From: Candidatus Aphodocola excrementigallinarum
GTDB lineage: Bacteria > Bacillota_I > Bacilli_A > RF39 > UBA660
Length of the DNA: 64,000 nt
Assembly: GCA_018714855.1 (NCBI GenBank)
Contig: DVMT01000015.1
Location: forward strand, 785 to 64,784
Direction of reading: 5' to 3'
The position numbers and the translations under genes were made by a program. How positions within the stretch are numbered: the first letter of the stretch is position 1; each line of letters opens with the position of its first letter. Of this stretch, positions 30,888-41,423 are shown in pieces. Below the pieces are notes generated by a model. That model was not told the origin of the DNA and did not search any database. It worked only from the letters and a program-made list of their open reading frames with translations.

Positions 30888-31835
30888 TTAGATTTTATAA
30901 AAATTTTTAGCATTTTTATAAAGTATTTTTTCACTATCACTATATGACCAAGTATTTAAAATTCTACCAATGGATTTATCATCAATGTTACCATGATTAT
31001 CAGTATTCCAATTAAAATCTATGTCAAAAAGTAGTTTCTCTGGATTAACTAATTCTTTTAAAATATTAAGATACCCTCTTTTTAAATATTCTTCCCTTGG
31101 TGTTAAAACCTTATATGGATCCAAAGAAATATCTAAATCAGGACCTATTCCAATCATGATGTTATCACACTTATTAACTAAATTGGTGATTTCGGTATCT
31201 AAGCATGCCCCATGATTTAAGACACCTCTTAAATTATTTTCTAATAAAAACATGGCCCAATCATTAGGACTACATTTATTACGCCAGTATTTAGTTTCAA
31301 AACCATAGCCATCATTATATGCATAAACAGAAGTATGTAAGATTAAAGGAACATCATAATACCTTATTGCTTCTACTAATTCAGGTTTAACATCCTCCTT
31401 AAAAAAGCCACTACTAAAGCCATGAAATTTAAGAGCTACTGGACTAAACTTTTTTATAATATCTTCAACGTAAGAAGCCTTATCTAAAGCTCCATGAATA
31501 AGAGGTACAAATTCAATTTTTGTATTAGTTTTAGAATTTGTTATTAAATTATAATAATATTCGTTAATATTTTTATATGGATTTGATACAACTTCTTTTT
31601 TTACTATTTCACCATTTTCATTAACTAATTTATAATATCGTATTAATTTGTAATTCTCATGTTCCCAAACAAGAGAACACACCTCTTTATCATCATCTTC
31701 ATAAACTGGCCAAGGCATTGGCATTAATAGGCCAATGTCAATATTATTTTTCTTGCAAAAATCATCATATGACTCTAAGGTTGTACCACTAAAATAGTAA
31801 TCTTTACCTACGTGACTATGTGCATCTATAATCAT
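30888..31835 (-). CDS. Amidohydrolase-family (TIM-barrel metal-dependent hydrolase) protein
   Basis: N-terminal IIDAHSHVG metal-binding motif; 315 aa. Confidence 0.55.
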   Translation of the reverse strand: MIIDAHSHVGKDYYFSGTTLESYDDFCKKNNIDIGLLMPMPWPVYEDDDKEVCSLVWEHENYKLIRYYKLVNENGEIVKKEVVSNPYKNINEYYYNLITNSKTNTKIEFVPLIHGALDKASYVEDIIKKFSPVALKFHGFSSGFFKEDVKPELVEAIRYYDVPLILHTSVYAYNDGYGFETKYWRNKCSPNDWAMFLLENNLRGVLNHGACLDTEITNLVNKCDNIMIGIGPDLDISLDPYKVLTPREEYLKRGYLNILKELVNPEKLLFDIDFNWNTDNHGNIDDKSIGRILNTWSYSDSEKILYKNAKNFYKI

Positions 31836-31876
31836 GAAATAACCTCCTAAACAAAATAAGAACTTTTTTAAAGTTC

Positions 31877-32056
31877 CTATTTATCATAAACGTTTCTTAC
31901 TTCTTTTATGTTTTCGTTTTTATCTTTGCACCCCTTACAAGTAGTATTACATGAACCAACACCACCACCGCAAGCACAACTGCTGCATACTGAAGCATAA
32001 TTTTCAAATGATGATACCATGTGTTTTTTTATGGTGTTTTTATCTAACATTTTCAT
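31877..32056 (-). CDS. Six-cysteine 59-aa peptide, candidate RiPP precursor (MKMLDKNTIKKHMVSSFENYASVCSSCACGGGVGSCNTTCKGCKDKNENIKEVRNVYDK)
   Basis: Missing from the ORF track because it is under 60 aa. It has a strong RBS GGAGGTGA, and its ATG overlaps the TGA stop of the upstream radical SAM gene (ATGA). I translated it by hand. Confidence 0.6.
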   Translation of the reverse strand: MKMLDKNTIKKHMVSSFENYASVCSSCACGGGVGSCNTTCKGCKDKNENIKEVRNVYDK

Positions 32057-33396
32057 TGTCTCACCTCCTTTGTATTATTATTGATTTTTTTATTTAATTG
32101 GTAGGCCTCTTTAAGTATCCATGATAATGTTTTTTTAGTATGTATACAAAAAGGTTTATCAATCATTTTCCTATCACCAAACAAGGCTTCGGCCTGAATC
32201 GCGCAGCCACCGCCACATATAAATAATGCATTACAATTTAAGCATTTTTTATTGTTTAAAGTATTTCTTTCCTTCCAAAATTTTATTTCGTCAGAATTCA
32301 TGATTTCTTCAATAGAAAGTTCTTTAATGTTCCCGATTACATACTTATCCGTCTTTAAGTACCCATGACAAATACATATGTCTCCATTTGGCTTTATTGC
32401 TAATTGATTAGCCCCAATCGCTCCACAATCTGAAAATTTAAATTCATTATTATAAAAACTATCTATTTTCCTTATTATTCTTCCATCATATATATCACTA
32501 CTACTTAATAATTTATAAGATTTTATAAGAAAATCACAAGCTTTTTTATAATAACTTTCCCAATTAGAGTCATAACTTGTATAATGATATAAATTATAAA
32601 AAATGCTTTTTACTCCAAGTTTTTTTAACCAGTTTAATACTTCATCCTGTTTATTTAAAAGATCCTCTGAAACCGTTATGGATAACCCAAATTTAGCACT
32701 ACTTAACTCAAGATAAGGAAACTTTTTGATAACTTCATCATAAACACTTTTATTACCATGACGATAAACTCTGTTTTTATCATTAAGCTCTTTAGGACCA
32801 TCAATAGATATACCTATTTCTACTTGTTTTTCTGCTAAGAATTCTATTTTTTCTTTATCTAATAAAGTGGCATTGGTAACCATAGAAAAATCAATTGGCG
32901 AGGAAAGTTCGGTTGCCTTATTTAAAACAAGTTTTATAACTTTCCAATTAACTAACGGCTCACCACCATAAAATATGACGGAGCCTCGCATTTTATTAAG
33001 TTTTAGATAATCAGTGTATTTAATAAGTGCTTCAAGTGCGGTTTTTTCACTCATGTTAATTTCTTTATTGTTATTAAACTGACAATTTTCTATAAAACAA
33101 TATTTACAGCCCAAGTTACACGCCGAACTCATTATAAAATACATTATATTAACTTTACCAGTTACTTTTTCATATCTTTTTCTTACCAATTTTAATGCTT
33201 CATCATCCAAACTTCTTTTTGATACATAAACTCCTATTTTTTTTAACTCTTCAGCTTGTTTTTTACTAACCGAAAAATCAATAACTTTCTTATAAGTTTT
33301 ACTATCTACATAAGCGATTTCCATAACTAATGAATTATAAATTGCATATACGTTGTTTTCTATCTTAACATGATGAAAAAATCTAGAAAGTTTCAT
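32053..33396 (-). CDS. Radical SAM / SPASM-domain peptide-modifying enzyme
   Basis: CxxxCxxC cluster (SACNLGCKYC) plus C-terminal auxiliary Cys clusters (CGAIGANQ...CICHG, CLNCNALFICGGGCAIQAE). Start placed at the ATG after AGGTGA; the track ORF begins at GTG. Confidence 0.75.
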   Translation of the reverse strand: MKLSRFFHHVKIENNVYAIYNSLVMEIAYVDSKTYKKVIDFSVSKKQAEELKKIGVYVSKRSLDDEALKLVRKRYEKVTGKVNIMYFIMSSACNLGCKYCFIENCQFNNNKEINMSEKTALEALIKYTDYLKLNKMRGSVIFYGGEPLVNWKVIKLVLNKATELSSPIDFSMVTNATLLDKEKIEFLAEKQVEIGISIDGPKELNDKNRVYRHGNKSVYDEVIKKFPYLELSSAKFGLSITVSEDLLNKQDEVLNWLKKLGVKSIFYNLYHYTSYDSNWESYYKKACDFLIKSYKLLSSSDIYDGRIIRKIDSFYNNEFKFSDCGAIGANQLAIKPNGDICICHGYLKTDKYVIGNIKELSIEEIMNSDEIKFWKERNTLNNKKCLNCNALFICGGGCAIQAEALFGDRKMIDKPFCIHTKKTLSWILKEAYQLNKKINNNTKEVRQ

Positions 33397-33859
33397 CGTT
33401 ATCACCTAGTTTCGTTACCATAATTATCTTATTCTCGGTAAATCCCATTTTTTCATACAAATTAATTGCACTATTGTTTTCCTTACAAACTTTTAGTTCT
33501 ATGTATTTTGCACCTATTTCATAAGACCAATTCTTAAAAGCGTCAATAAGTTTAATTCCAACACCTAAGCGTCTATAATCCTGCTCAACGTACAAAGCAT
33601 CCAAAACACTAACCGTATCAATTTTTGCATCACCATTATTTTGAACATAACCATATATATAACCAATAATATGTTCTTTTTCTTTCGCAACTAAAAGGCA
33701 AACATCATCGTTATTATAAAAATTCTCATAAAGTGATTTAACAACACAATTTTCATTAATGTTTTCATCATATTTTTTTTCGTCAACTATTAACTTAGTT
33801 AACAATTTATTTACTTCTTTTGCATCTTCATAGGTACTTTTCGTTATCTTTAAATCCAT
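33383..33859 (-). CDS. GNAT-family N-acetyltransferase
   Basis: Acetyl-CoA-binding motif RRLGVGIKLI; 158 aa. Confidence 0.7.
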   Translation of the reverse strand: MDLKITKSTYEDAKEVNKLLTKLIVDEKKYDENINENCVVKSLYENFYNNDDVCLLVAKEKEHIIGYIYGYVQNNGDAKIDTVSVLDALYVEQDYRRLGVGIKLIDAFKNWSYEIGAKYIELKVCKENNSAINLYEKMGFTENKIIMVTKLGDNDETF

Positions 33860-33932: not shown

Positions 33933-34379
33933 TCATTCTGTTTCTTCAACTCCTAAAGAATAAGCAAATCTAATTAGAGTTTCTTTTTTCTTAATGTAAT
34001 AATATCCCAGTGAAAAACCTAAGTTATTAGCAATAAACCTATCATCATAGTTATTTTCCTTATCTAAATAAGTCCAATATATTATTTTTCTTTCTTCAGT
34101 TGTTAATTTATTAAACGAAAATCTAAAGTAATTAATAAATTCTATTCTTGTTTTTCTTTCTTGAGGATCTAATTTAATATAAGAATTAGTATTAGTAATA
34201 TAACTTAACTCATCAAGGGTAAAATCATCTTTTATTTTTGAAGTTGGGCCGTTATCAACCGACAAACTATAATATACGTACTTTGCGATTGTTTGCTCAA
34301 CGTTCTTCTTTGTTTTTGACCAAGAAATATTTATTGGTTGTACCATGATAACAGCTCCTTTCAAAGAATATTCTATCAT
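33933..34379 (-). CDS. ArpU-family (phage-type, sigma-70 region-4-like) transcriptional regulator
   Basis: C-terminal pattern LTTEERKIIYWTYLD...IANNLGFSLGYYYIKKKETLIRFAYSLG. Confidence 0.5.
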   Translation of the reverse strand: MIEYSLKGAVIMVQPINISWSKTKKNVEQTIAKYVYYSLSVDNGPTSKIKDDFTLDELSYITNTNSYIKLDPQERKTRIEFINYFRFSFNKLTTEERKIIYWTYLDKENNYDDRFIANNLGFSLGYYYIKKKETLIRFAYSLGVEETE

Positions 34380-34488: not shown

Positions 34489-37299
34489 CTATAAAATTTG
34501 TTTTAAATACATTCCGGTGTAAGATTTTTCACATTTAGCCACTTTTTCAGGCGTTCCTTCACAAACTATAGTTCCTCCACCGTCACCGCCTTCTGGCCCT
34601 AAGTCTATTATGTGATCTGCTACTTTTATAACATCTAAGTTATGCTCTATTACGATTACCGTATCACCATTATCAACGATTCTATTTAATATAACAAGAA
34701 GTTTTTTAATATCATCACTATGAAGTCCGGTTGTTGGTTCATCTAGGATAAACACACTTTTACCGGTTGGTTTTTTCTGAAGTTCTTTAGCAAGTTTAAC
34801 ACGTGATGCTTCACCTCCAGATAATGTTGGAGCGCTTTGACCAAGTTTTATATAACCTAATCCAACGTCCATTAAAACTTGTAATTTCCTTTTAATCTTA
34901 GGATGGTTTTCGAAGAATTCTAGTGCTTCTTCAACGCGCATTTGTAAAACGTCATATATTGTTTTTCCTTTATATTTAACTTCTAAAGTTTCCTTATTAA
35001 AACGCGTGCCCCCGCAAACCTCACAAGGAACGTATACGTCTGGTAAAAAGTTCATCGAAATCTTCTTAACGCCATCACCCCAGCACGCTTCACAGCGGCC
35101 TCCTTTAACGTTAAACGAAAATCTTCCTTTATCATAACCCCTTATCTTCGCTTCCTTAGTATTTGCAAAAACGTCTCTTATATCATCAAACACACCAACG
35201 TAAGTTGCAGGATTACTACGAGGCGTTCTACCAATTGGATCTTGAGTTATATCAATTACTTTATCGACGTTTTCTAATCCTTTAATACTTTTATGTTTAC
35301 CCGGAACCACTCTTGATCCATAAACGTTTAATGCAAGTGCTTTATATAAAATTTGATTAATCAAACTTGATTTACCTGATCCTGATACACCAGTTACACA
35401 TATAAACTTTCCAAGTGGAAACTTAACGTTCATGTTCTTTAAGTTATTTTCTTTAGCACCTTTTATTTCTATATACTTACCGTTTCCTTTTCTTCTTTTT
35501 TTAGGGACTTCTATTTTCTTTCTTCCAGATAGGTAATCGCCTGTTAAACTGTTTTTGTTTTTCATAACCTCTTCTGGCGTTCCACAAGCGACTATTTCTC
35601 CACCGTGATCTCCTGCACCAGGACCTACGTCTACTAGGTAATCAGCTTGAAGCATCGTATCAGTATCATGCTCTACAACTATTAAAGTATTACCTAAATC
35701 CCTCATCTTTAATAAAGAATCAATAAGTCTTTGATTATCTCTTTGGTGAAGTCCAATACTTGGTTCATCAAGTACGTATAAAACTCCTGTTAACTGTGAT
35801 CCAATTTGGGTTGCAAGTCTTATTCTTTGTGCTTCGCCACCAGAAAGCGTTCCAGCACTTCTTGATAAGGTTAAGTAACCAAGTCCTACGTTATGTAAAA
35901 ACTCTAACCTTGATTTTATTTCTTTAATTAATAATCTTGCAATTTCTTCTTTTTCCTTGCTTAACTTTAATTTATCAAAGAAATCATATAATTTATCAAT
36001 GTTCATATCGGTTAAATCAATTATGTTTTTCTTGTTTATTAAAACTGATAAAACACTTTCTTTTAATCTTTTACCATGACAAGTTGGACAAGTAAGTTCT
36101 ACCATGTACTTACCAAGCCATTCTCTTATAAACTCACTATTAGTCTCAAAGTAACGTCTTTCTAAGTTGTTTAATACGCCCTCATATGGTTCATATGAAT
36201 CAACAGAGTTTCCACTTCTTGTTGAAAACTTAAACTCAATAGGCTCTTTGGTACCATTAAGAACTATATCAAGCTCTTTTTTTGTTAGATCCTTGATTTT
36301 CTTATCCATGTCAATGCCATATTTATCACAAACTATTTCAAGTTTTTTAATATATATATTGTACTCATCCATGCCTGCATAAGGCTCTATTCCGCCGCGT
36401 CTTAACGTTTTGTTTTTATCAGGAATGATTAAGTCCGCACTCATCTTTTGCTTAAATCCTAATCCCTTACAATCTGGACATGATCCGTATGGAGCGTTAA
36501 ACGAAAACATTCTAGGTTCTAATTCTTCTAGTGAAAAATCACAGTGAGGACAAGCAAAGGACTCACTCATAACGATTTCATCACGTCCAGGTATTTCAAC
36601 CACTGCTTTTCCCTTAGACAACTTGCAGGCAAGCTCTAGTGCCTCATAAATTCTTCCTCTTGCTTCATCTTTTCTTTTTACCCTATCTATTATAACTAGA
36701 ATATTATGTTTTTTATTTTTTTCTAAGTTTATATCCTCGCTTAAATCTCTTACTTCATCATCTATTTTTACTCTTACATAACCATCTTTTCGTAAATTTT
36801 CAAGTAAATCTTTAAACGTGCCTTTTTGTCCATAAACAATTGGCGAAGAAATTATTAGTTTTGTTTCTTCTTCCTCATTCATTATCTGATTTGTCATCTC
36901 TTCAATAGACTGACTTGATATTGGAATATTATGATTTGGACAGTAAGGAACACCTATGCGAGCAAATAATAACCTTAAGTAATCATATATTTCAGTTACC
37001 GTTCCAACCGTAGATCTTGGGTTGTTATTAGTTGTTTTTTGATCTATTGAAATAGATGGAGAAAGGCCTTCTATCGAATCAACATCAGGCTTTGTTGTTC
37101 CACCTAAAAACTGTCTTGCGTAAGCAGATAAACTTTCTACGTATCTTCTTTGACCTTCTGCATATATTGTATCAAAAGCAAGTGATGACTTACCTGATCC
37201 AGATACACCAGTCATAACCGTTAATTTATTTTTAGGAATTTCAATATCCACGTTTTTTAAATTGTTTTCTCTAGCACCTTTTACTATAATCTTATCCAT
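34489..37299 (-). CDS. uvrA: Excinuclease ABC subunit A
   Basis: Two ABC ATPase modules with zinc fingers. Start placed at the ATG after AGAGGTG (MDKIIVKG...). Confidence 0.95.
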   Translation of the reverse strand: MDKIIVKGARENNLKNVDIEIPKNKLTVMTGVSGSGKSSLAFDTIYAEGQRRYVESLSAYARQFLGGTTKPDVDSIEGLSPSISIDQKTTNNNPRSTVGTVTEIYDYLRLLFARIGVPYCPNHNIPISSQSIEEMTNQIMNEEEETKLIISSPIVYGQKGTFKDLLENLRKDGYVRVKIDDEVRDLSEDINLEKNKKHNILVIIDRVKRKDEARGRIYEALELACKLSKGKAVVEIPGRDEIVMSESFACPHCDFSLEELEPRMFSFNAPYGSCPDCKGLGFKQKMSADLIIPDKNKTLRRGGIEPYAGMDEYNIYIKKLEIVCDKYGIDMDKKIKDLTKKELDIVLNGTKEPIEFKFSTRSGNSVDSYEPYEGVLNNLERRYFETNSEFIREWLGKYMVELTCPTCHGKRLKESVLSVLINKKNIIDLTDMNIDKLYDFFDKLKLSKEKEEIARLLIKEIKSRLEFLHNVGLGYLTLSRSAGTLSGGEAQRIRLATQIGSQLTGVLYVLDEPSIGLHQRDNQRLIDSLLKMRDLGNTLIVVEHDTDTMLQADYLVDVGPGAGDHGGEIVACGTPEEVMKNKNSLTGDYLSGRKKIEVPKKRRKGNGKYIEIKGAKENNLKNMNVKFPLGKFICVTGVSGSGKSSLINQILYKALALNVYGSRVVPGKHKSIKGLENVDKVIDITQDPIGRTPRSNPATYVGVFDDIRDVFANTKEAKIRGYDKGRFSFNVKGGRCEACWGDGVKKISMNFLPDVYVPCEVCGGTRFNKETLEVKYKGKTIYDVLQMRVEEALEFFENHPKIKRKLQVLMDVGLGYIKLGQSAPTLSGGEASRVKLAKELQKKPTGKSVFILDEPTTGLHSDDIKKLLVILNRIVDNGDTVIVIEHNLDVIKVADHIIDLGPEGGDGGGTIVCEGTPEKVAKCEKSYTGMYLKQIL

Positions 37300-37353
37300 A
37301 TACAACACCTCTAGCGACTATATTCTATCATAAAAACATAAAAATTAAAATTG

Positions 37354-38190
37354 TTATTTTATTGTATCAATGAATTTTTTATTTTCTTCCTTTTTTACAA
37401 GTTCTTTTAGTGATTTATCTGGGACTGGCATTTCTTCTGGAAGCGTTCCTCCAACTTGCTTGATAGTAGTTCTAATTGCATCACCAACTTCATAATGTGC
37501 ATCACAAGCCGGAGTTTCTCCTTTTATTTTTTCATTGTTAATCTTTTGATTAGTAAGTGATATTCTAAAAAGATTTGCCGCTAATTCATCACTACCCATG
37601 TTATCTAAAATGTCTTCTCTATATCTTAATCCTTTTCTTTTTGAGATATCATCTGCTGTTTCTCCATTATATAAACCTTTATATCCAGCATTATGAAACT
37701 TATCAAAGTTTTTAACACCAGCTTTCTTAGCCGTTTGATTTAATGCATAATTTTCTTTTCTTACCTTACTTCTTTGATAGAACCTTTTTTCATCTTCAGT
37801 TAGTTTTTCATATTCTAACTCACTTATTTCTTGCTTTCTTGTTTGAATAGCAAAATATGTTTGCCCTAGTGCAATAACTTTTTTTCTAGAATCTGCATTT
37901 TGAACTATAAGATAACATGCATATCTTGATAATTTATAATCACATATTATCTTCTTTGCTCCTTTAGGCATTTTTATCGTTTTGTCGGCGCCGACAAAAT
38001 GCTCGGAAACGTTGAATTTACTAGTATCGCACGCTTGTTTAGCTTTATTTATTACCCCTTCAAACTTCCTCCATTCTTTATATTCTAAAACCTTTTGTAA
38101 TTCTCTGGCTTCCCAATACTCAATTCCATTTTCATCAATGTGCTTTATATTTTCAAAAACACTTTCATTATAATTTGTTAGTTCGTTCAT
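37354..38190 (-). CDS. DinD-like DNA-damage-inducible protein (Bro-N/KilA-N-like N-terminal domain)
   Basis: The N-terminus (FENIKHIDENGIEYWEARELQKVLEYKEWRKF) resembles the DinD family; 278 aa. Confidence 0.5.
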   Translation of the reverse strand: MNELTNYNESVFENIKHIDENGIEYWEARELQKVLEYKEWRKFEGVINKAKQACDTSKFNVSEHFVGADKTIKMPKGAKKIICDYKLSRYACYLIVQNADSRKKVIALGQTYFAIQTRKQEISELEYEKLTEDEKRFYQRSKVRKENYALNQTAKKAGVKNFDKFHNAGYKGLYNGETADDISKRKGLRYREDILDNMGSDELAANLFRISLTNQKINNEKIKGETPACDAHYEVGDAIRTTIKQVGGTLPEEMPVPDKSLKELVKKEENKKFIDTIK

Positions 38191-38384
38191 ATAACTTTTT
38201 TCCTTTCTTATAAATATAAATTTTTACTACAATAAAAAGTTTCTTACTTTTTAAAACCGCTCCTTTCATTTATATTTGCCCGTTACATAAACTACTAACC
38301 AATACTTAAATATCCCCATACATGTGAGGTTAGGCCTTAATATCGCTATTATTATATCAAACAATTGTTCTTTTAACAATAGTC

Positions 38385-38417
38385 AAAAAAAGCTAATAAA
38401 TTAAATATTAGCTTTTT
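38385..38417. terminator. Rho-independent terminator (AAGCTAATA-aattaaa-TATTAGCTT)
   Basis: Perfect 9-bp stem flanked by A and T runs, at the 3' end of the 38416..38856 gene. Confidence 0.55.
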
Positions 38418-38856
38418 ACCAACCCATTATTTCTTTAAGTTTATAAGATGCTATTTGTTCAACATTATCTGTACACATCGCTTTAAACTTCCATGTGCCA
38501 TTAGCTTCTAAACCACTATTGTTATCCAAGCAAGTACCTAAGGTATTACCATCAGCATCATAAGTTGTAAATTCAACCTGTACATAGTCATAATCTTTAT
38601 CCATATTATTTTTTATTGACCCTTCAATATAATAAGCAAAATTATAATCATCTGGGGCAGCACTTGTTACTTCAAGCAAAGTGAATTTTTCTTGTGTTTT
38701 GTTTTTATTTGTTGTTCCATTATTATTACTGCTATTATTACTAGAAGAATCTTCATTTCCACTTGCTAATCCTATTATAATAATTACAACAAAAACAATT
38801 ATTAATATTTTAGCCCATTTTGGAAATCCTTTTTTCTTAGCACTTTTTTCTTCCAT
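38416..38856 (-). CDS. Hypothetical membrane-anchored or secreted protein with an N/S-rich linker
   Basis: Start at Met31 after the RBS AAAGGAGTAGGAAG. Signal-anchor helix ILIIVFVVIIIIGLA. Confidence 0.5.
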   Translation of the reverse strand: MEEKSAKKKGFPKWAKILIIVFVVIIIIGLASGNEDSSSNNSSNNNGTTNKNKTQEKFTLLEVTSAAPDDYNFAYYIEGSIKNNMDKDYDYVQVEFTTYDADGNTLGTCLDNNSGLEANGTWKFKAMCTDNVEQIASYKLKEIMGW

Positions 38857-39009
38857 ACTTCCTACTCCTTTCTTTATATTTACAGCATAATTATTAAGAT
38901 ACTGCGTATAATAATACAAACTGTAGCTATATTTATTATAGAACACATATCTATAGAATACAAATGCTTTTTATAAAATTATTATAGAAATATTTAAAGA
39001 AGTGGTATT

Positions 39010-39351: not shown

Positions 39352-41304
39352 TTAATTTACCTTCATTTCAAATATAATATCACGAAGTTCCATAGCACGT
39401 TCGAAATCTAAATCATCAGCGGCCTTTTTCATTTCGTCTTCTAATTGTTTTAGAAGCTTATCATCATGAATTTCTTCTTTAGTTCTATGCTTCTTAGATT
39501 TCTTATCACCTGCGTTAACACTTACAACATCCATTATCTTTTTCTTTATAGTTTGAGGTACTATATGATGCTTTTCATTATATTTAATTTGTATTGCGCG
39601 GCGTCTTGCGGTTTCATCAATCGCCTGCCTCATCGCTTCGCTTATAATATCACCATACATTATAACACGCCCGCCTGCGTTTCTTGCACATCTACCAATA
39701 GTTTGAATAAGACTTCTGTGACTTCTTAAGAAGCCTTGTTTATCAGCGTCCAAAATAGCAACCAAGCTTACCTCTGGTATATCAAGGCCTTCCCTTAAAA
39801 GGTTTATACCTACTAAAACATCATATTTACCCGCTCTTAAATCATGTATTATTCTAAGTCTTTCAAGTGTTTTTACCTCACTATGAAGATAAGCCACTTT
39901 TATATTTAAATTCTTTAAATATGAAGTTAATTCCTCCGCCATTCTAATGGTTAAAGTTGTAACTAAAGTTCTGTCACCTTTTTCAATTTGTTTTTGAATT
40001 TCTTCTATCAAATCGTCAACTTGGTTACTAGATTTTCTAACTTCTATTAAAGGATCTAAAAGACCAGTTGGTCTAATTATTTGTTCTACCACGTGATTAT
40101 GAACTTTTTCTAATTCTTCATCACCAGGAGTTGCAGATACATATATTACTTGGTTTATTTTTTCTTCAAATTCTTCATATCTTAAAGGTCTGTTGTCTAA
40201 CGCTGATGGAAGTCTAAAGCCATAATCAACAAGCATTTGTTTTCTATTTCTATCGCCGTTATACATAGCTTTGACTTGAGGTAATGTTACATGGGATTCA
40301 TCTACGACCATTAAAAAATCTTTTGGAAAGAAGTCTAAAAGACAAGTTGGCGTTGCACCAGCAGGTTTTAAAGCTAGATGTCTTGAGTAGTTTTCAACTC
40401 CAGAACAAAAACCTGTTTCTTCTAGCATTTCTATATCATACTTACACCTCTGTTCCAGGCGTTCTGCTTCTAATAACTTACCGTTATCACGAAAATATTT
40501 TAGCCTATCTTCTAACTCAGCCTTAATATTTACAATTGCTTTTTTTAATTTTTCATCACTAGTTACGAAATGAGATGCTGGCATGATTGAGATAAGTTCT
40601 TTTTCGCTTACAACCGCTCCAGTTAATACGTCAAATTCACAAATTCTATCTATTTCATCTCCAAAAAGCTCTATTCTAATTCCATGGCTTTTTTCATATG
40701 ATGGAATAACTTCAATAACATCACCCTTGGCTCTAAATGTTCCCCTTACTAAGTCCATGTTATTTCTTTCATATAACATATCAACTAGTTTTTTAAGTAT
40801 TTCGTTTCTGTTTATCTCGTCTCCTACTTTTAAAGTAAGCATGTGATTTTCATATTCTTCTTTATCTCCTATACCATATATACAAGATACTGATGCTACT
40901 ACTATTACGTCCTTATAATTTATTAAAGATGATGTTGCGTAGTGTCTTAACTCATCTATCTCATCATTAATAGATGAATCTTTTTCTATATAAGTATCAC
41001 TAGATGGAACATATGCTTCTGGTTGGTAATAGTCATAGTACGAAACAAAATAACAAACGTGATTGTTTGGAAAGATTTCCTTTAACTCTGAGTACAACTG
41101 GCCTGCTAGCGTTTTGTTGTGTGCTAAAACTAGCGTTGGCTTATTTACTTCTTTAATTACGTTTGCAATTGTAAATGTTTTACCAGTGCCCGTAGCCCCT
41201 AGTAAAACCTGGTATTTCTTGCCATCTTTTATTCCATCAGAAAGTTCTTTTATTGCCTCCGGCTGATCACCAGATGGTTTAAATTTAGACACTAAATCAA
41301 ACAT
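39352..41304 (-). CDS. uvrB: Excinuclease ABC subunit B
   Basis: Helicase motifs ([12 protein letters not shown]), UvrB interaction domain and C-terminal UVR domain. Start at the ATG after AGAGGTGA. Confidence 0.95.
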
Positions 41305-41423
41305 AAGAATCACCTCTAATTAATACGTTTATTCTATCATTTATTATAAAAGAAAACAAGAAATATATAATAATAAAAATAGCTATTAAAATGATACTAT
41401 CAAAAAAAGAGCAAAACGCTCTT

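What the first reader, a model, noticed from the sequence alone, without database searches (positions are those of the whole stretch)
31877..33396. Radical SAM/SPASM enzyme translationally coupled to an unlisted six-cysteine 59-aa peptide: candidate ranthipeptide/sactipeptide-type RiPP locus
Seen in sequence: the 450-aa ORF has a canonical CxxxCxxC cluster (SACNLGCKYC) plus C-terminal auxiliary Cys clusters (CLNCNALFICGGGCAIQAE). Its TGA stop (32053-32055) overlaps the ATG (32054-32056) of a minus-strand ORF that falls just under the 60-aa track cutoff. That ORF has a strong RBS GGAGGTGA and encodes MKMLDKNTIKKHMVSSFENYASVCSSCACGGGVGSCNTTCKGCKDKNENIKEVRNVYDK. All six Cys sit in a 20-residue G/S/T-rich core after a 23-aa leader-like region. 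Established knowledge: SPASM/twitch rSAM enzymes paired with small Cys-rich peptides make sactipeptides and ranthipeptides (for example the clostridial SCIFF system). Here the order is maturase then precursor, with an ATGA overlap, and the peptide differs from the conserved SCIFF core (GGCGECQTSC...). Neighbours are a GNAT acetyltransferase (overlapping the rSAM start), an amidohydrolase and a DUF360/holin-family membrane protein downstream, and an ArpU-like regulator upstream. Together this looks like a compact biosynthetic island between lgt and uvrA.
Basis: partly seen in the sequence, partly recalled or inferred. Interest (0 to 1): 0.85.

Follow-up and report, generated by a model that had tools for sequence, protein, structure and literature searches.

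The report
Radical-SAM cysteine-rich peptide maturation cassette
This is a real, conserved four-gene cassette in uncultured gut Bacilli, in which a radical-SAM enzyme most likely cross-links a small six-cysteine peptide: an uncharacterised new family of a well-known type of modified-peptide system, not a new kind of biology.

Summary
A 447-aa radical SAM/SPASM gene (32053-33396, minus) ends in a TGA that overlaps the ATG of a 59-aa six-Cys ORF (31877-32056), which has a GGAGG ribosome-binding site.

The small ORF is a real gene:
- It has about 40 homologues.
- The core (residues 21-59) has dN/dS 0.02-0.10.
- In all but one of roughly 20 distinct loci carrying a 39-72% identical enzyme, a Cys-rich peptide gene lies next to the enzyme gene.

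The enzyme has an RRE-like N-terminal domain. It has the same seven SPASM cysteines as the thioether synthase CteB, its best structural match. It falls below the curated cut-off of every named family; the nearest is FibroRumin (255 vs 400 bits). The peptide matches no curated family.

A GNAT acetyltransferase and an orphan amidohydrolase-fold protein travel with the pair in at least four different chromosomal contexts, so they belong to the cassette. The DUF360 protein and the ArpU-like gene do not.

Most likely this is a thioether (ranthipeptide/sactipeptide-type) RiPP system with acetylation and hydrolytic tailoring. The chemistry is untested. I rate it a new member of a known kind, of moderate interest.

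The parts
33383..33859 (-). GNAT N-acetyltransferase (158 aa), first gene of the cassette. Its stop overlaps the rSAM start by 14 nt.
   Evidence: Pfam Acetyltransf_1 63.3 bits against a cut-off of 20.7. Nearest NCBIfam model is RimI, 54 bits, below its cut-off. Homologues lie directly upstream of the rSAM gene in L001, L081, L087-L090, L092 and L096, and downstream of it in L095.
32053..33396 (-). Radical SAM/SPASM peptide maturase (447 aa from the ATG at 33396; the ORF is open back to the GTG at 33405).
   Evidence: Pfam Radical_SAM 67.6 bits and SPASM 41.2 bits, both above cut-off. Best NCBIfam model is TIGR04136 FibroRumin maturase, 255 bits, below its cut-off of 400. AF2 model pLDDT 92.6. 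Foldseek best hits are CteB 5WHY/5WGG at 2e-22, then TigE and anSME.
33157..33396 (-). N-terminal RRE-like (PqqD-like winged-helix) domain of the maturase, residues ~1-80.
   Evidence: The AF2 model shows three strands (7-13, 16-21, 28-31) followed by helices 32-39, 45-53 and 62-78. The profile aligns across this region with TigE (8VPO) and with the full-length FibroRumin model. The assignment rests on topology only; RRE-Finder was not run.
33097..33120 (-). CxxxCxxC radical SAM cluster motif (C93, C97, C100).
   Evidence: Read directly in the sequence. Invariant in 25/25 homologues.
32146..32427 (-). SPASM domain with seven conserved Cys (324, 343, 385, 388, 394, 398, 417).
   Evidence: Six are invariant and C394 is present in 24 of 25 homologues. 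They align one-to-one with the CteB auxiliary-cluster cysteines. The extra Aux-I cysteine of anSME is absent.
32061..32068 (-). Ribosome-binding site GGAGGTGA for the precursor gene, located inside the 3' end of the rSAM gene.
   Evidence: Read directly in the sequence, seven nt upstream of the ATG.
31877..32056 (-). Precursor peptide gene (59 aa). N-terminal M-x-x-L-[DN]-K motif plus a variable spacer (1-20), a six-Cys core (24-43), and a conserved C-terminal tail KDKNENIKEVRxxYxK.
   Evidence: 40 homologues, alignment A1, core dN/dS 0.02-0.10. An HMM search of 1.84 billion representative proteins found only 13 clusters. No Pfam or NCBIfam match.
31928..31987 (-). Cys-rich core CSSCACGGGVGSCNTTCKGC (residues 24-43), the presumed site of cross-linking.
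   Evidence: All six Cys are invariant, as are G30, G32, T38, T39, K41 and G42; K44 and D45, just downstream of the core, are invariant too. The family-wide motif is SVCxSC...TCKGCxD.
31849..31882 (-). Hairpin plus U-run overlapping the peptide stop codon: a terminator- or attenuator-like element between the precursor and amidohydrolase genes.
   Evidence: Free energy -10.4 kcal/mol, z-score -2.3. A hairpin plus U-run at the same position, with different sequence, occurs in L001, L081, L087 and L090; it is weak in L092 and L096. The simple terminator scan did not call it.
30888..31835 (-). Orphan amidohydrolase-superfamily TIM-barrel protein (315 aa), last gene of the cassette.

Best explanation
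A four-gene RiPP cassette, GNAT - rSAM/SPASM maturase - 59-aa precursor - amidohydrolase-fold enzyme, is read as one tightly coupled minus-strand operon.

Proposed mechanism:
1. The maturase binds the precursor through its N-terminal RRE-like domain.
2. It cleaves SAM at the CxxxCxxC cluster to make a 5'-deoxyadenosyl radical, which abstracts a hydrogen from an acceptor residue of the core.
3. It joins that carbon to a Cys sulfur held at the open iron site of auxiliary cluster I, as in CteB and PapB. The products are intramolecular thioether rings.
4. The most likely rings use the invariant stretch S-C36-N-T38-T39-C40-K-G-C43-K-D45. C36 to T38 would mirror SCIFF C32 to T34, and C40 or C43 to D45 would mirror the PapB Cys-Asp link.
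5. The metal-dependent amidohydrolase then probably trims the peptide (leader or C-terminal tail), and the GNAT acetylates an amine (a new N-terminus or a Lys).

The product is more likely a conserved physiological or signalling peptide than an arms-race bacteriocin, for three reasons: the core is nearly invariant across species, no exporter or immunity gene was recognised among the genes that travel with the cassette, and nor was a classical leader protease.

What is shown: the gene reality, the coupling, the co-inheritance, and the enzyme fold and ligand set.
What is inferred: the thioether chemistry, the ring positions, and the roles of GNAT and the hydrolase.
For: - Anatomy and coupling: a 4-nt ATGA overlap, a 14-nt GNAT/rSAM overlap, and ribosome-binding sites.
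- Peptide is real: 40 homologues with all Cys invariant; core dN/dS 0.02-0.10.
- Co-occurrence: a Cys-rich small ORF lies next to the enzyme in L001, L003-L006, L081, L083, L085, L087-L099. The same holds in more distant true FibroRumin and Patescibacteria loci.
- Cassette in different chromosomal contexts: L081, L090, L092 and L096 carry all four genes. L095 carries GNAT in a rearranged order.
- Enzyme: Radical_SAM and SPASM domains. Best sequence and fold match is the ranthipeptide synthase CteB. It has an RRE-like N-terminal fold. Its seven SPASM Cys match CteB's 3+4 ligand set and it lacks anSME's eighth Cys. CteB Aux I has three Cys ligands and binds a substrate Cys (PMC10177961).
- Local motif: C-x-T-[ST]-C is shared with the SCIFF cross-link site (PMC8326336).
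- Hydrolase: amidohydrolase fold with conserved HxH/H/H/D residues. There is precedent for an amidohydrolase removing a RiPP follower peptide, PurAH (PMC10885120).
- A terminator-like hairpin after the precursor gene is conserved in structure.
Against: - No curated maturase family threshold is met: FibroRumin 255/400, PapB 172/340, SCIFF 132/425. The chemistry therefore cannot be transferred by membership.
- The second-best structural neighbour, TigE, makes cyclopropylglycine rather than thioethers.
- The N-terminal 20 residues evolve almost neutrally (dN/dS about 1), which is unusual for a leader. The C-terminal tail is conserved instead, so the recognition mode is uncertain.
- No repeated CX3D motif is present.
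- GNAT and the hydrolase are absent from clades whose enzyme is 47-53% identical (L083, L093, L094, L097, L099), so they are accessory.
- L002 shows no adjacent peptide on its short contig.
- There are no expression or mass-spectrometry data.
Confidence: 0.7

Rival explanations
1. It is a RiPP system, but the rSAM enzyme installs a modification other than a thioether on the peptide, for example epimerisation, C-C or C-O cross-links, cyclopropanation, or Cys-to-formylglycine-type oxidation. The cysteines would then serve another purpose, such as disulfides or metal binding.
For: SPASM enzymes are chemically diverse. TigE (a cyclopropylglycine synthase) is the second-best sequence and fold match, and anSME, ChlB and SuiB follow. 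No curated thioether-synthase model reaches its cut-off.
Against: All six Cys are invariant, as are neighbouring Thr and Asp acceptor-type residues. The whole extended enzyme clade pairs with CxC-rich peptides. The Aux-I ligand set (three Cys, open site) matches the thioether synthases CteB, PapB and Tte1186. CteB is the best hit both by sequence profile and by Foldseek E-value; TigE has a slightly higher TM-score.
Confidence: 0.17
2. The small Cys-rich protein is not a substrate. It would be an unmodified metal- or Fe-S-binding or redox partner (a metallochaperone-like peptide), and the rSAM enzyme would act on another molecule.
For: The core is highly conserved with six Cys and Gly, which resembles metal-binding peptides. 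No protease or exporter is present. The N-terminus is variable.
Against: The enzyme carries an RRE-like peptide-binding domain. Its nearest families are all peptide maturases. Related clades pair with very different Cys-rich peptides of 5-14 Cys, sometimes in tandem copies, which is typical of substrates rather than cofactor chaperones. No candidate alternative substrate gene, such as a sulfatase or quinohemoprotein, is seen in the loci.
Confidence: 0.08
3. The 59-aa ORF is a chance open frame downstream of an orphan rSAM gene.
For: It is short, it lies below common annotation cut-offs, and its composition is low-complexity.
Against: There are 40 homologues with invariant Cys. Core dN/dS is 0.02-0.10 with many synonymous changes. 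It has a strong ribosome-binding site and a conserved position. Gene callers in several sources call it.
Confidence: 0.01

Closest known systems
SCIFF / ranthipeptide systems (ScfA-ScfB; CteA-CteB, Tte1186a-Tte1186)
   Same: Both pair a six-Cys short precursor with an RRE + rSAM + SPASM maturase. CteB is the best solved-structure match. The seven SPASM Cys are the same, with a three-Cys Aux I. The motif around the fourth Cys is shared: SCIFF A-C32-K-T34-S-C36 against S-C36-N-T38-T39-C40 here. Both are minimal loci with no recognisable exporter or immunity gene, and both have a core highly conserved across species.
   Different: The maturase is only about 22% identical to CteB. It scores 132 bits against a cut-off of 425 on the ScfB model, and the peptide has no hit to the SCIFF model. 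Gene order is reversed: scfA lay upstream of scfB in the more than 50 SCIFF loci recovered, whereas here the precursor is downstream with an ATGA overlap. The SCIFF leader is highly conserved; here residues 7-20 are variable and a 16-residue C-terminal tail is conserved. GNAT and amidohydrolase partners accompany this system and are not a described feature of SCIFF loci (own knowledge; not checked in the loci recovered here).
FibroRumin system (TIGR04136 maturase / TIGR04135 Cys-rich peptides)
   Same: It is the highest-scoring curated model, aligning full length and including the N-terminal domain (255 bits). The substrates are CxC-rich peptides. True FibroRumin loci (L008, L009, L012) are the next relatives, at about 30-33% identity.
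   Different: The score is below the cut-off (255 against 400). The peptide does not match TIGR04135, whereas L008 peptides score 64-70 bits. FibroRumin peptides lie upstream, often in tandem, end in ...DELDWE, and have an ABC ATPase gene downstream. The FibroRumin system itself has no experimental characterisation that I could find.
PapB / freyrasin (Cys-Asp beta-thioether ranthipeptide)
   Same: It is the second-best curated model (172 bits). It has the same auxiliary-cluster Cys scheme. An invariant Asp (D45) follows the last two Cys.
   Different: The score is below the cut-off (172 against 340). The peptide has no repeated CX3D motif. The PapB model aligns only from residue 88 onward, so the N-terminal domains are not comparable.
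PurAH/BotAH in bottromycin biosynthesis (amidohydrolase that removes a follower peptide)
   Same: Both are metal-dependent amidohydrolase-superfamily enzymes encoded in a RiPP cluster whose precursor has a conserved C-terminal extension.
   Different: There is no detectable sequence relationship. The protein here is nearest to the Amidohydro_2 (PF04909) branch and carries an extra beta-subdomain. Its substrate is unknown. The analogy is functional speculation only.

Membership tests
Radical SAM superfamily (PF04055) | CxxxCxxC motif and a domain score above the gathering threshold | tested here: met
   67.6 bits against 29.5. C93, C97 and C100 are invariant in 25/25 homologues.
SPASM subfamily (PF13186 / TIGR04085-type) | C-terminal domain with about seven Cys that binds two auxiliary 4Fe-4S clusters | tested here: met
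   41.2 bits against 21.5. Seven conserved Cys align with the CteB AC1/AC2 ligands. Cluster binding itself was not testable.
SCIFF maturase ScfB (TIGR03974) | Whole-protein score of at least 425 bits | tested here: not met
   131.9 bits.
SCIFF precursor ScfA (TIGR03973) | Match to the SCIFF peptide model (GGCGECQTSCQSACKTSCTVGNQ core), with the gene upstream of scfB | tested here: not met
   No NCBIfam hit at E<=0.1. The core differs from more than 50 SCIFF peptides recovered in L019-L080, and the gene order is opposite.
FibroRumin system (TIGR04136 + TIGR04135) | Maturase at least 400 bits and peptide at least 45 bits | tested here: not met
   Maturase 255.1 bits; the peptide has no hit. As positive controls, L008, L009 and L012 score 705-795 bits, and the two L008 peptides score 64-70 bits; the L012 peptide (33.8 bits) is below the 45-bit cut-off.
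PapB-family ranthipeptide maturase (NF047865) | Score of at least 340 bits; substrate with CX3D/E motifs | tested here: not met
   172.3 bits. The peptide sequence contains no C-x-x-x-D/E.
Anaerobic sulfatase-maturating enzyme (TIGR03942) | Score of at least 349 bits; fully Cys-ligated Aux I (eight SPASM Cys); sulfatase substrate | tested here: not met
   138.8 bits. The extra Cys of the anSME 'GTCTC' insert is absent. No sulfatase appears in any of the loci inspected.
Sactipeptide / ranthipeptide class | Cys sulfur linked to an alpha (sacti) or non-alpha (ranthi) carbon by the rSAM enzyme | not testable with these tools
   This needs mass spectrometry and NMR of the modified peptide.
RiPP system in general | A small precursor gene co-inherited with a maturase that carries a peptide-recognition (RRE) domain | tested here: met
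   Co-inheritance was seen across about 20 distinct loci. The RRE-like beta3-alpha3 topology is in a pLDDT>90 model. RRE-Finder/HHpred confirmation was not run.
Amidohydrolase superfamily (clan of PF04909 Amidohydro_2) | (beta/alpha)8 barrel with HxH on strand 1, His on strands 5 and 6, and Asp on strand 8 | tested here: met
GNAT acetyltransferases (PF00583) | Domain score above the gathering threshold | tested here: met
   63.3 bits against 20.7. No specific subfamily is met: RimI 54.4 against 86.4, HaaN 28.8 against 250.

The most novel reading that the evidence does not exclude
The cassette makes a previously undescribed RiPP subclass. It would be a thioether-bridged peptide whose recognition or function depends on a conserved C-terminal tail rather than a conserved leader. 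A dedicated orphan amidohydrolase and a GNAT would then process it by trimming and N-acetylation, or by an acetylation/deacetylation switch. The product would serve as a conserved intracellular or signalling peptide in small-genome gut Bacilli. The rSAM enzyme might also install chemistry not yet seen in CteB- or PapB-type enzymes.
Probability: 0.2. Interest if true: 0.65.

Novelty: new member of a known kind. Interest (0 to 1): 0.4.

Why it matters
The finding adds a defined, testable family to the rSAM/SPASM Cys-rich RiPPs:
- The precursor signature is SVCxSC...TCKGCxD...(V/I)YxK.
- The maturase clade sits outside all curated models.
- There are two dedicated tailoring enzymes. One is an amidohydrolase-fold family with no Pfam assignment and only about 56 known members.

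The cassette occurs in uncultured, poorly understood gut Bacilli (Candidatus Aphodocola and relatives). Its near-invariant core suggests a physiological role like that proposed for SCIFF peptides.

It is a compact four-gene target for heterologous expression. The work could reveal the ring topology, whether recognition uses a leader or a follower, and a new use of the amidohydrolase fold in peptide maturation. It does not by itself overturn anything known.

Tried and rejected
- DUF360/holin-like and ArpU-like genes as part of the island: rejected. They accompany the cassette only where the whole uvrA...lgt synteny is kept (L001, L087-L089). They are absent in L081, L090, L092, L096 and L095. 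The run uvrB-uvrA...DUF360-lgt-trxB...whiA is housekeeping backbone.
- Phage origin: the peptide pattern scan of IMG/VR found no relative.
- Membership in curated families: all failed the NCBIfam cut-offs.
- Literature by family name (FibroRumin, TIGR04136) returned nothing. A search combining ranthipeptide with acetyltransferase or amidohydrolase found nothing relevant.
- The genome-contig scan with the rSAM alignment was swamped by generic SPASM patterns. It returned mostly SCIFF loci (L019-L080), which were useful only as a comparison set.
- The metagenome scan with the peptide gave only five loci.
- L002 (43% identical enzyme) has no detectable adjacent Cys-rich ORF on its 7.4-kb contig. 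This is unresolved.
- Sequence-only searches for the 315-aa protein found nothing in Pfam, NCBIfam or PDB. Only structure prediction placed it.
- tRNA and Rfam scans of the window found nothing.
- The simple terminator scan did not call the post-peptide hairpin.
Full report
**Observation**

The minus strand of 30.9-33.9 kb carries four tightly packed genes.

- A 158-aa ORF at 33383-33859.
- A 450-aa ORF at 32053-33405 from a GTG. The ATG at 33396 is preceded by AGGTGA, and it gives the 447-aa length and the MKLS... start shared by homologues. With that start the upstream ORF overlaps it by 14 nt.
- A 59-aa ORF at 31877-32056. Its ATG overlaps the TGA of the large ORF (ATGA), and GGAGGTGA lies seven nt upstream.
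- After a 41-nt spacer, a 315-aa ORF at 30888-31835.

**Is the small ORF real?**

Yes, on three lines of evidence.

- It has 40 database homologues of 51-100% identity. Nearly all are 58-61 aa, and one is identical and already deposited as a hypothetical protein of the MAG 'Candidatus Aphodocola excrementigallinarum'. That organism is placed in Bacilli incertae sedis.
- In the alignment all six Cys are invariant. So are G30, G32, T38, T39, K41, G42, K44 and D45. The C-terminal tail is nearly invariant, and residues 7-20 are variable.
- Nei-Gojobori estimates on codon-aligned genes from five loci give dN/dS 0.02-0.10 for residues 21-59 at dS 0.5-2.5. Residues 1-20 give about 1.

A profile search of 1.84 billion representative proteins found only 13 clusters. 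They share SVCxSC...TCKGCxD...(V/I)YxK. The family is therefore narrow. It matches no Pfam or NCBIfam model, including the SCIFF and FibroRumin peptide models.

**The enzyme**

Pfam finds Radical_SAM and SPASM domains. All high-scoring NCBIfam models are peptide maturases, and none reaches its curated cut-off:

| Model | Score (bits) | Cut-off (bits) |
|---|---|---|
| FibroRumin maturase | 255 | 400 |
| PapB | 172 | 340 |
| nif11 maturase | 149 | 518.7 |
| anSME | 139 | 349 |
| SCIFF ScfB | 132 | 425 |

Structural and ligand evidence points to a CteB-like enzyme.

- A profile of 25 homologues hits CteB best among solved structures (1e-42), then TigE and anSME.
- A high-confidence AF2 model (pLDDT 92.6) shows an N-terminal three-strand, three-helix unit typical of RiPP recognition elements, followed by the TIM-like core and the SPASM domain.
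- Foldseek ranks CteB first (2e-22), then TigE, anSME, ChlB and SuiB.
- Ten Cys are conserved: 93/97/100 and 324/343/385/388/394/398/417 (C394 in 24 of 25 homologues). C341 is not conserved.
- The seven SPASM Cys align one-to-one with those of CteB. The additional Aux-I Cys of anSME lies in an insert that is absent here.
- In CteB, Aux I has three Cys ligands and an open site that contacts a substrate Cys. Selenium spectroscopy on PapB and Tte1186 supports substrate binding at that cluster (PMC10177961).

**Comparative genomics**

Loci were obtained by pattern scans and exact-protein look-ups and analysed by tblastn and ORF scans.

- Same synteny. At 72% enzyme identity (L001, L087-L089) the whole neighbourhood is kept: uvrA-ArpU-GNAT-rSAM-peptide-315aa-DUF360-lgt-trxB.
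- Four-gene cassette elsewhere. At 58-65% identity (L081, L090, L092, L096) GNAT-rSAM-peptide-315aa sits in unrelated chromosomal contexts, without ArpU or DUF360.
- Rearranged order. At 47% (L095) the order is peptide-rSAM-GNAT.
- Pair only. At 47-53% (L083, L093, L094, L097, L099) only the rSAM-peptide pair is present.
- Many-Cys variants. L085 and L098 pair the enzyme with 81-aa and 65-aa peptides carrying 14 and 10 Cys, on TraG/relaxase-bearing elements.
- Distant relatives. At 39-43% (L003-L006) related peptides lie nearby, on either strand.
- Exception. Only L002 shows none, on a short contig.
- True FibroRumin loci (L008, L009, L012; maturase 705-795 bits) and Patescibacteria loci carry CxC-rich peptides upstream.

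The conclusions are as follows.

- The core unit is the rSAM gene plus its precursor.
- GNAT and the 315-aa protein are clade-specific but genuine cassette members.
- DUF360 and the ArpU-like gene are neighbours by synteny only.
- Matching longest-contig lengths among the three protein hit lists fit the co-residence of enzyme, peptide and 315-aa protein.

**The 315-aa protein**

Sequence searches against Pfam, NCBIfam and PDB find nothing for it. Only 56 homologues exist, and one is annotated PF04909. Invariant residues include H6, H8, K136, H138, H167, H208, D271 and D273.

The AF2 model (pLDDT 94.7) is an amidohydrolase-superfamily barrel:
- Foldseek agrees.
- Fourteen of 36 members give weak PF04909 hits.
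- About 75 residues, a beta-subdomain at 43-81, are extra.

Its substrate is unknown. The only RiPP precedent I can cite for this fold is PurAH, which removes the bottromycin follower peptide (PMC10885120).

**Operon features**

A terminator-like hairpin sits downstream of uvrA. A hairpin with a U-run overlaps the peptide stop codon (free energy -10.4 kcal/mol, z -2.3). It recurs with different sequence in L001, L081, L087 and L090. This is consistent with partial termination after the precursor gene.

**Mechanism proposed**

1. The RRE-like domain binds the precursor. The conserved M-x-x-L-[DN]-K start resembles the SCIFF MKHIKTLN leader, but the conserved C-terminal tail is an alternative handle.
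2. Radical SAM chemistry then forms Cys-to-carbon thioethers at the Aux-I site.
3. The invariant S-C36-N-T38-T39-C40 mirrors the SCIFF cross-link site A-C32-K-T34-S-C36, where C32-T34 or C32-T37 links are reported (PMC8326336).
4. D45 after C40 and C43 recalls the PapB Cys-Asp links.
5. The hydrolase and GNAT then tailor the product.
6. Loci that carry GNAT have Y-A-S-(V/F)-C before the first Cys. Three loci that lack it (L083, L093, L094) have x-M-S-V-C; L097 and L099, which also lack it, read GSTC and SSTC. That hints at processing or acetylation near A21/S22. The sample is small and this is speculative.

Confidence by step:

| Claim | Confidence |
|---|---|
| RiPP precursor-maturase pair | about 0.9 |
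| Thioether chemistry | about 0.6-0.7 |
| Specific ring positions and tailoring roles | at most 0.3 |

**Comparison and novelty**

The system works like SCIFF/ranthipeptide and FibroRumin systems, but it fails every curated membership test. It differs in four ways: gene order, leader and tail conservation, precursor family, and accessory enzymes.

I found no literature on the FibroRumin family or on this cassette. The general kind, a SPASM rSAM enzyme beside a Cys-rich peptide, is well established. I therefore rate it a new member of a known kind with some unusual accessories, and of moderate interest.

Noticed in passing
P0160 (85-aa protein from a 1.6-kb Logan contig; aligned in A1): A chimeric ORF joins the SPASM end of the rSAM protein (..CLNCEAIYTCGGG) directly to the peptide core (..TSSCNTTCKGCKDK..). 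The join is at the CGGG motif that both genes share. It is either a natural deletion or an assembly artefact.
   Followed up: no
L097 5069-5623 (-) and L099 4965-5513 (-): In two loci whose enzyme is 47-49% identical, a homologous 182-184-aa protein lies convergent to the rSAM-peptide pair. It contains a CAWCWD motif, and the L099 copy has a weak Transglut_core similarity (E 0.005). It may be a cysteine peptidase that replaces the amidohydrolase and GNAT.
   Followed up: partly
L085 5001-7583 and L098 1104-6997: Related rSAM genes pair with much longer peptides of 81 and 65 aa carrying 14 and 10 Cys, ending ...IEKIYKN and ...LENIYS. They are flanked by a TraG-like gene and, in L085, a Replic_Relax gene (a same-sized unannotated ORF occupies that position in L098), so this branch rides on a mobile element.
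   Followed up: partly
L094 5355-6200: A second, shorter peptide copy sits next to a duplicated 3' fragment of the rSAM gene and transposase fragments. This looks like a local duplication or a decay event.
   Followed up: no
L019-L080 (loci from the genome scan): These are classical SCIFF loci. A 46-47-aa ScfA (MKHIKTLN...GGCGECQTSCQSACKTSCTVGNQSCE) lay 0.3-0.9 kb upstream of the matched part of ScfB in the more than 50 loci where it was found. The leader as well as the core is almost invariant, in contrast with the variable N-terminus of the window family.
   Followed up: partly
window 31877-32056 and homologues in L081, L083, L092-L096: The residues just before the first Cys co-vary with cassette content. 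Y-A-S-(V/F)-C occurs where a GNAT is present. x-M-S-V-C occurs in three of the loci that lack GNAT and amidohydrolase (L083, L093, L094). The internal Met could even be an alternative start. The sample is small.
   Followed up: partly
window 30888-31835 (protein residues 43-81): The amidohydrolase-fold protein carries an inserted four-strand beta-subdomain that is not aligned to any solved relative. Only about 225-240 of its 315 residues superpose.
   Followed up: no
window 37354-38946: A DinD (DNA-damage-inducible protein D) homologue at 341 bits and an FxLYD-domain protein are inserted between uvrB (39352-41313) and uvrA (34489-37308).
   Followed up: no
window 33933-34379: An ArpU-like gene scores 41.0 bits on TIGR01637, just under the 43.1 cut-off. 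It stands alone between the uvrA terminator and the cassette, with no other phage gene nearby. It is conserved only in the syntenic relatives, and whether it regulates the cassette is unknown.
   Followed up: partly
L004 4886-5074 (-), L005 4761-4949 (-), L003 2853-3050 (-): In the clade whose enzyme is about 43% identical, the related peptides are encoded on the opposite strand. An example is ..YSSTCNCGSCNCNCGGGG...IEHIYK. They lie about 1 kb upstream or just downstream of the rSAM gene, so translational coupling is not universal.
   Followed up: no
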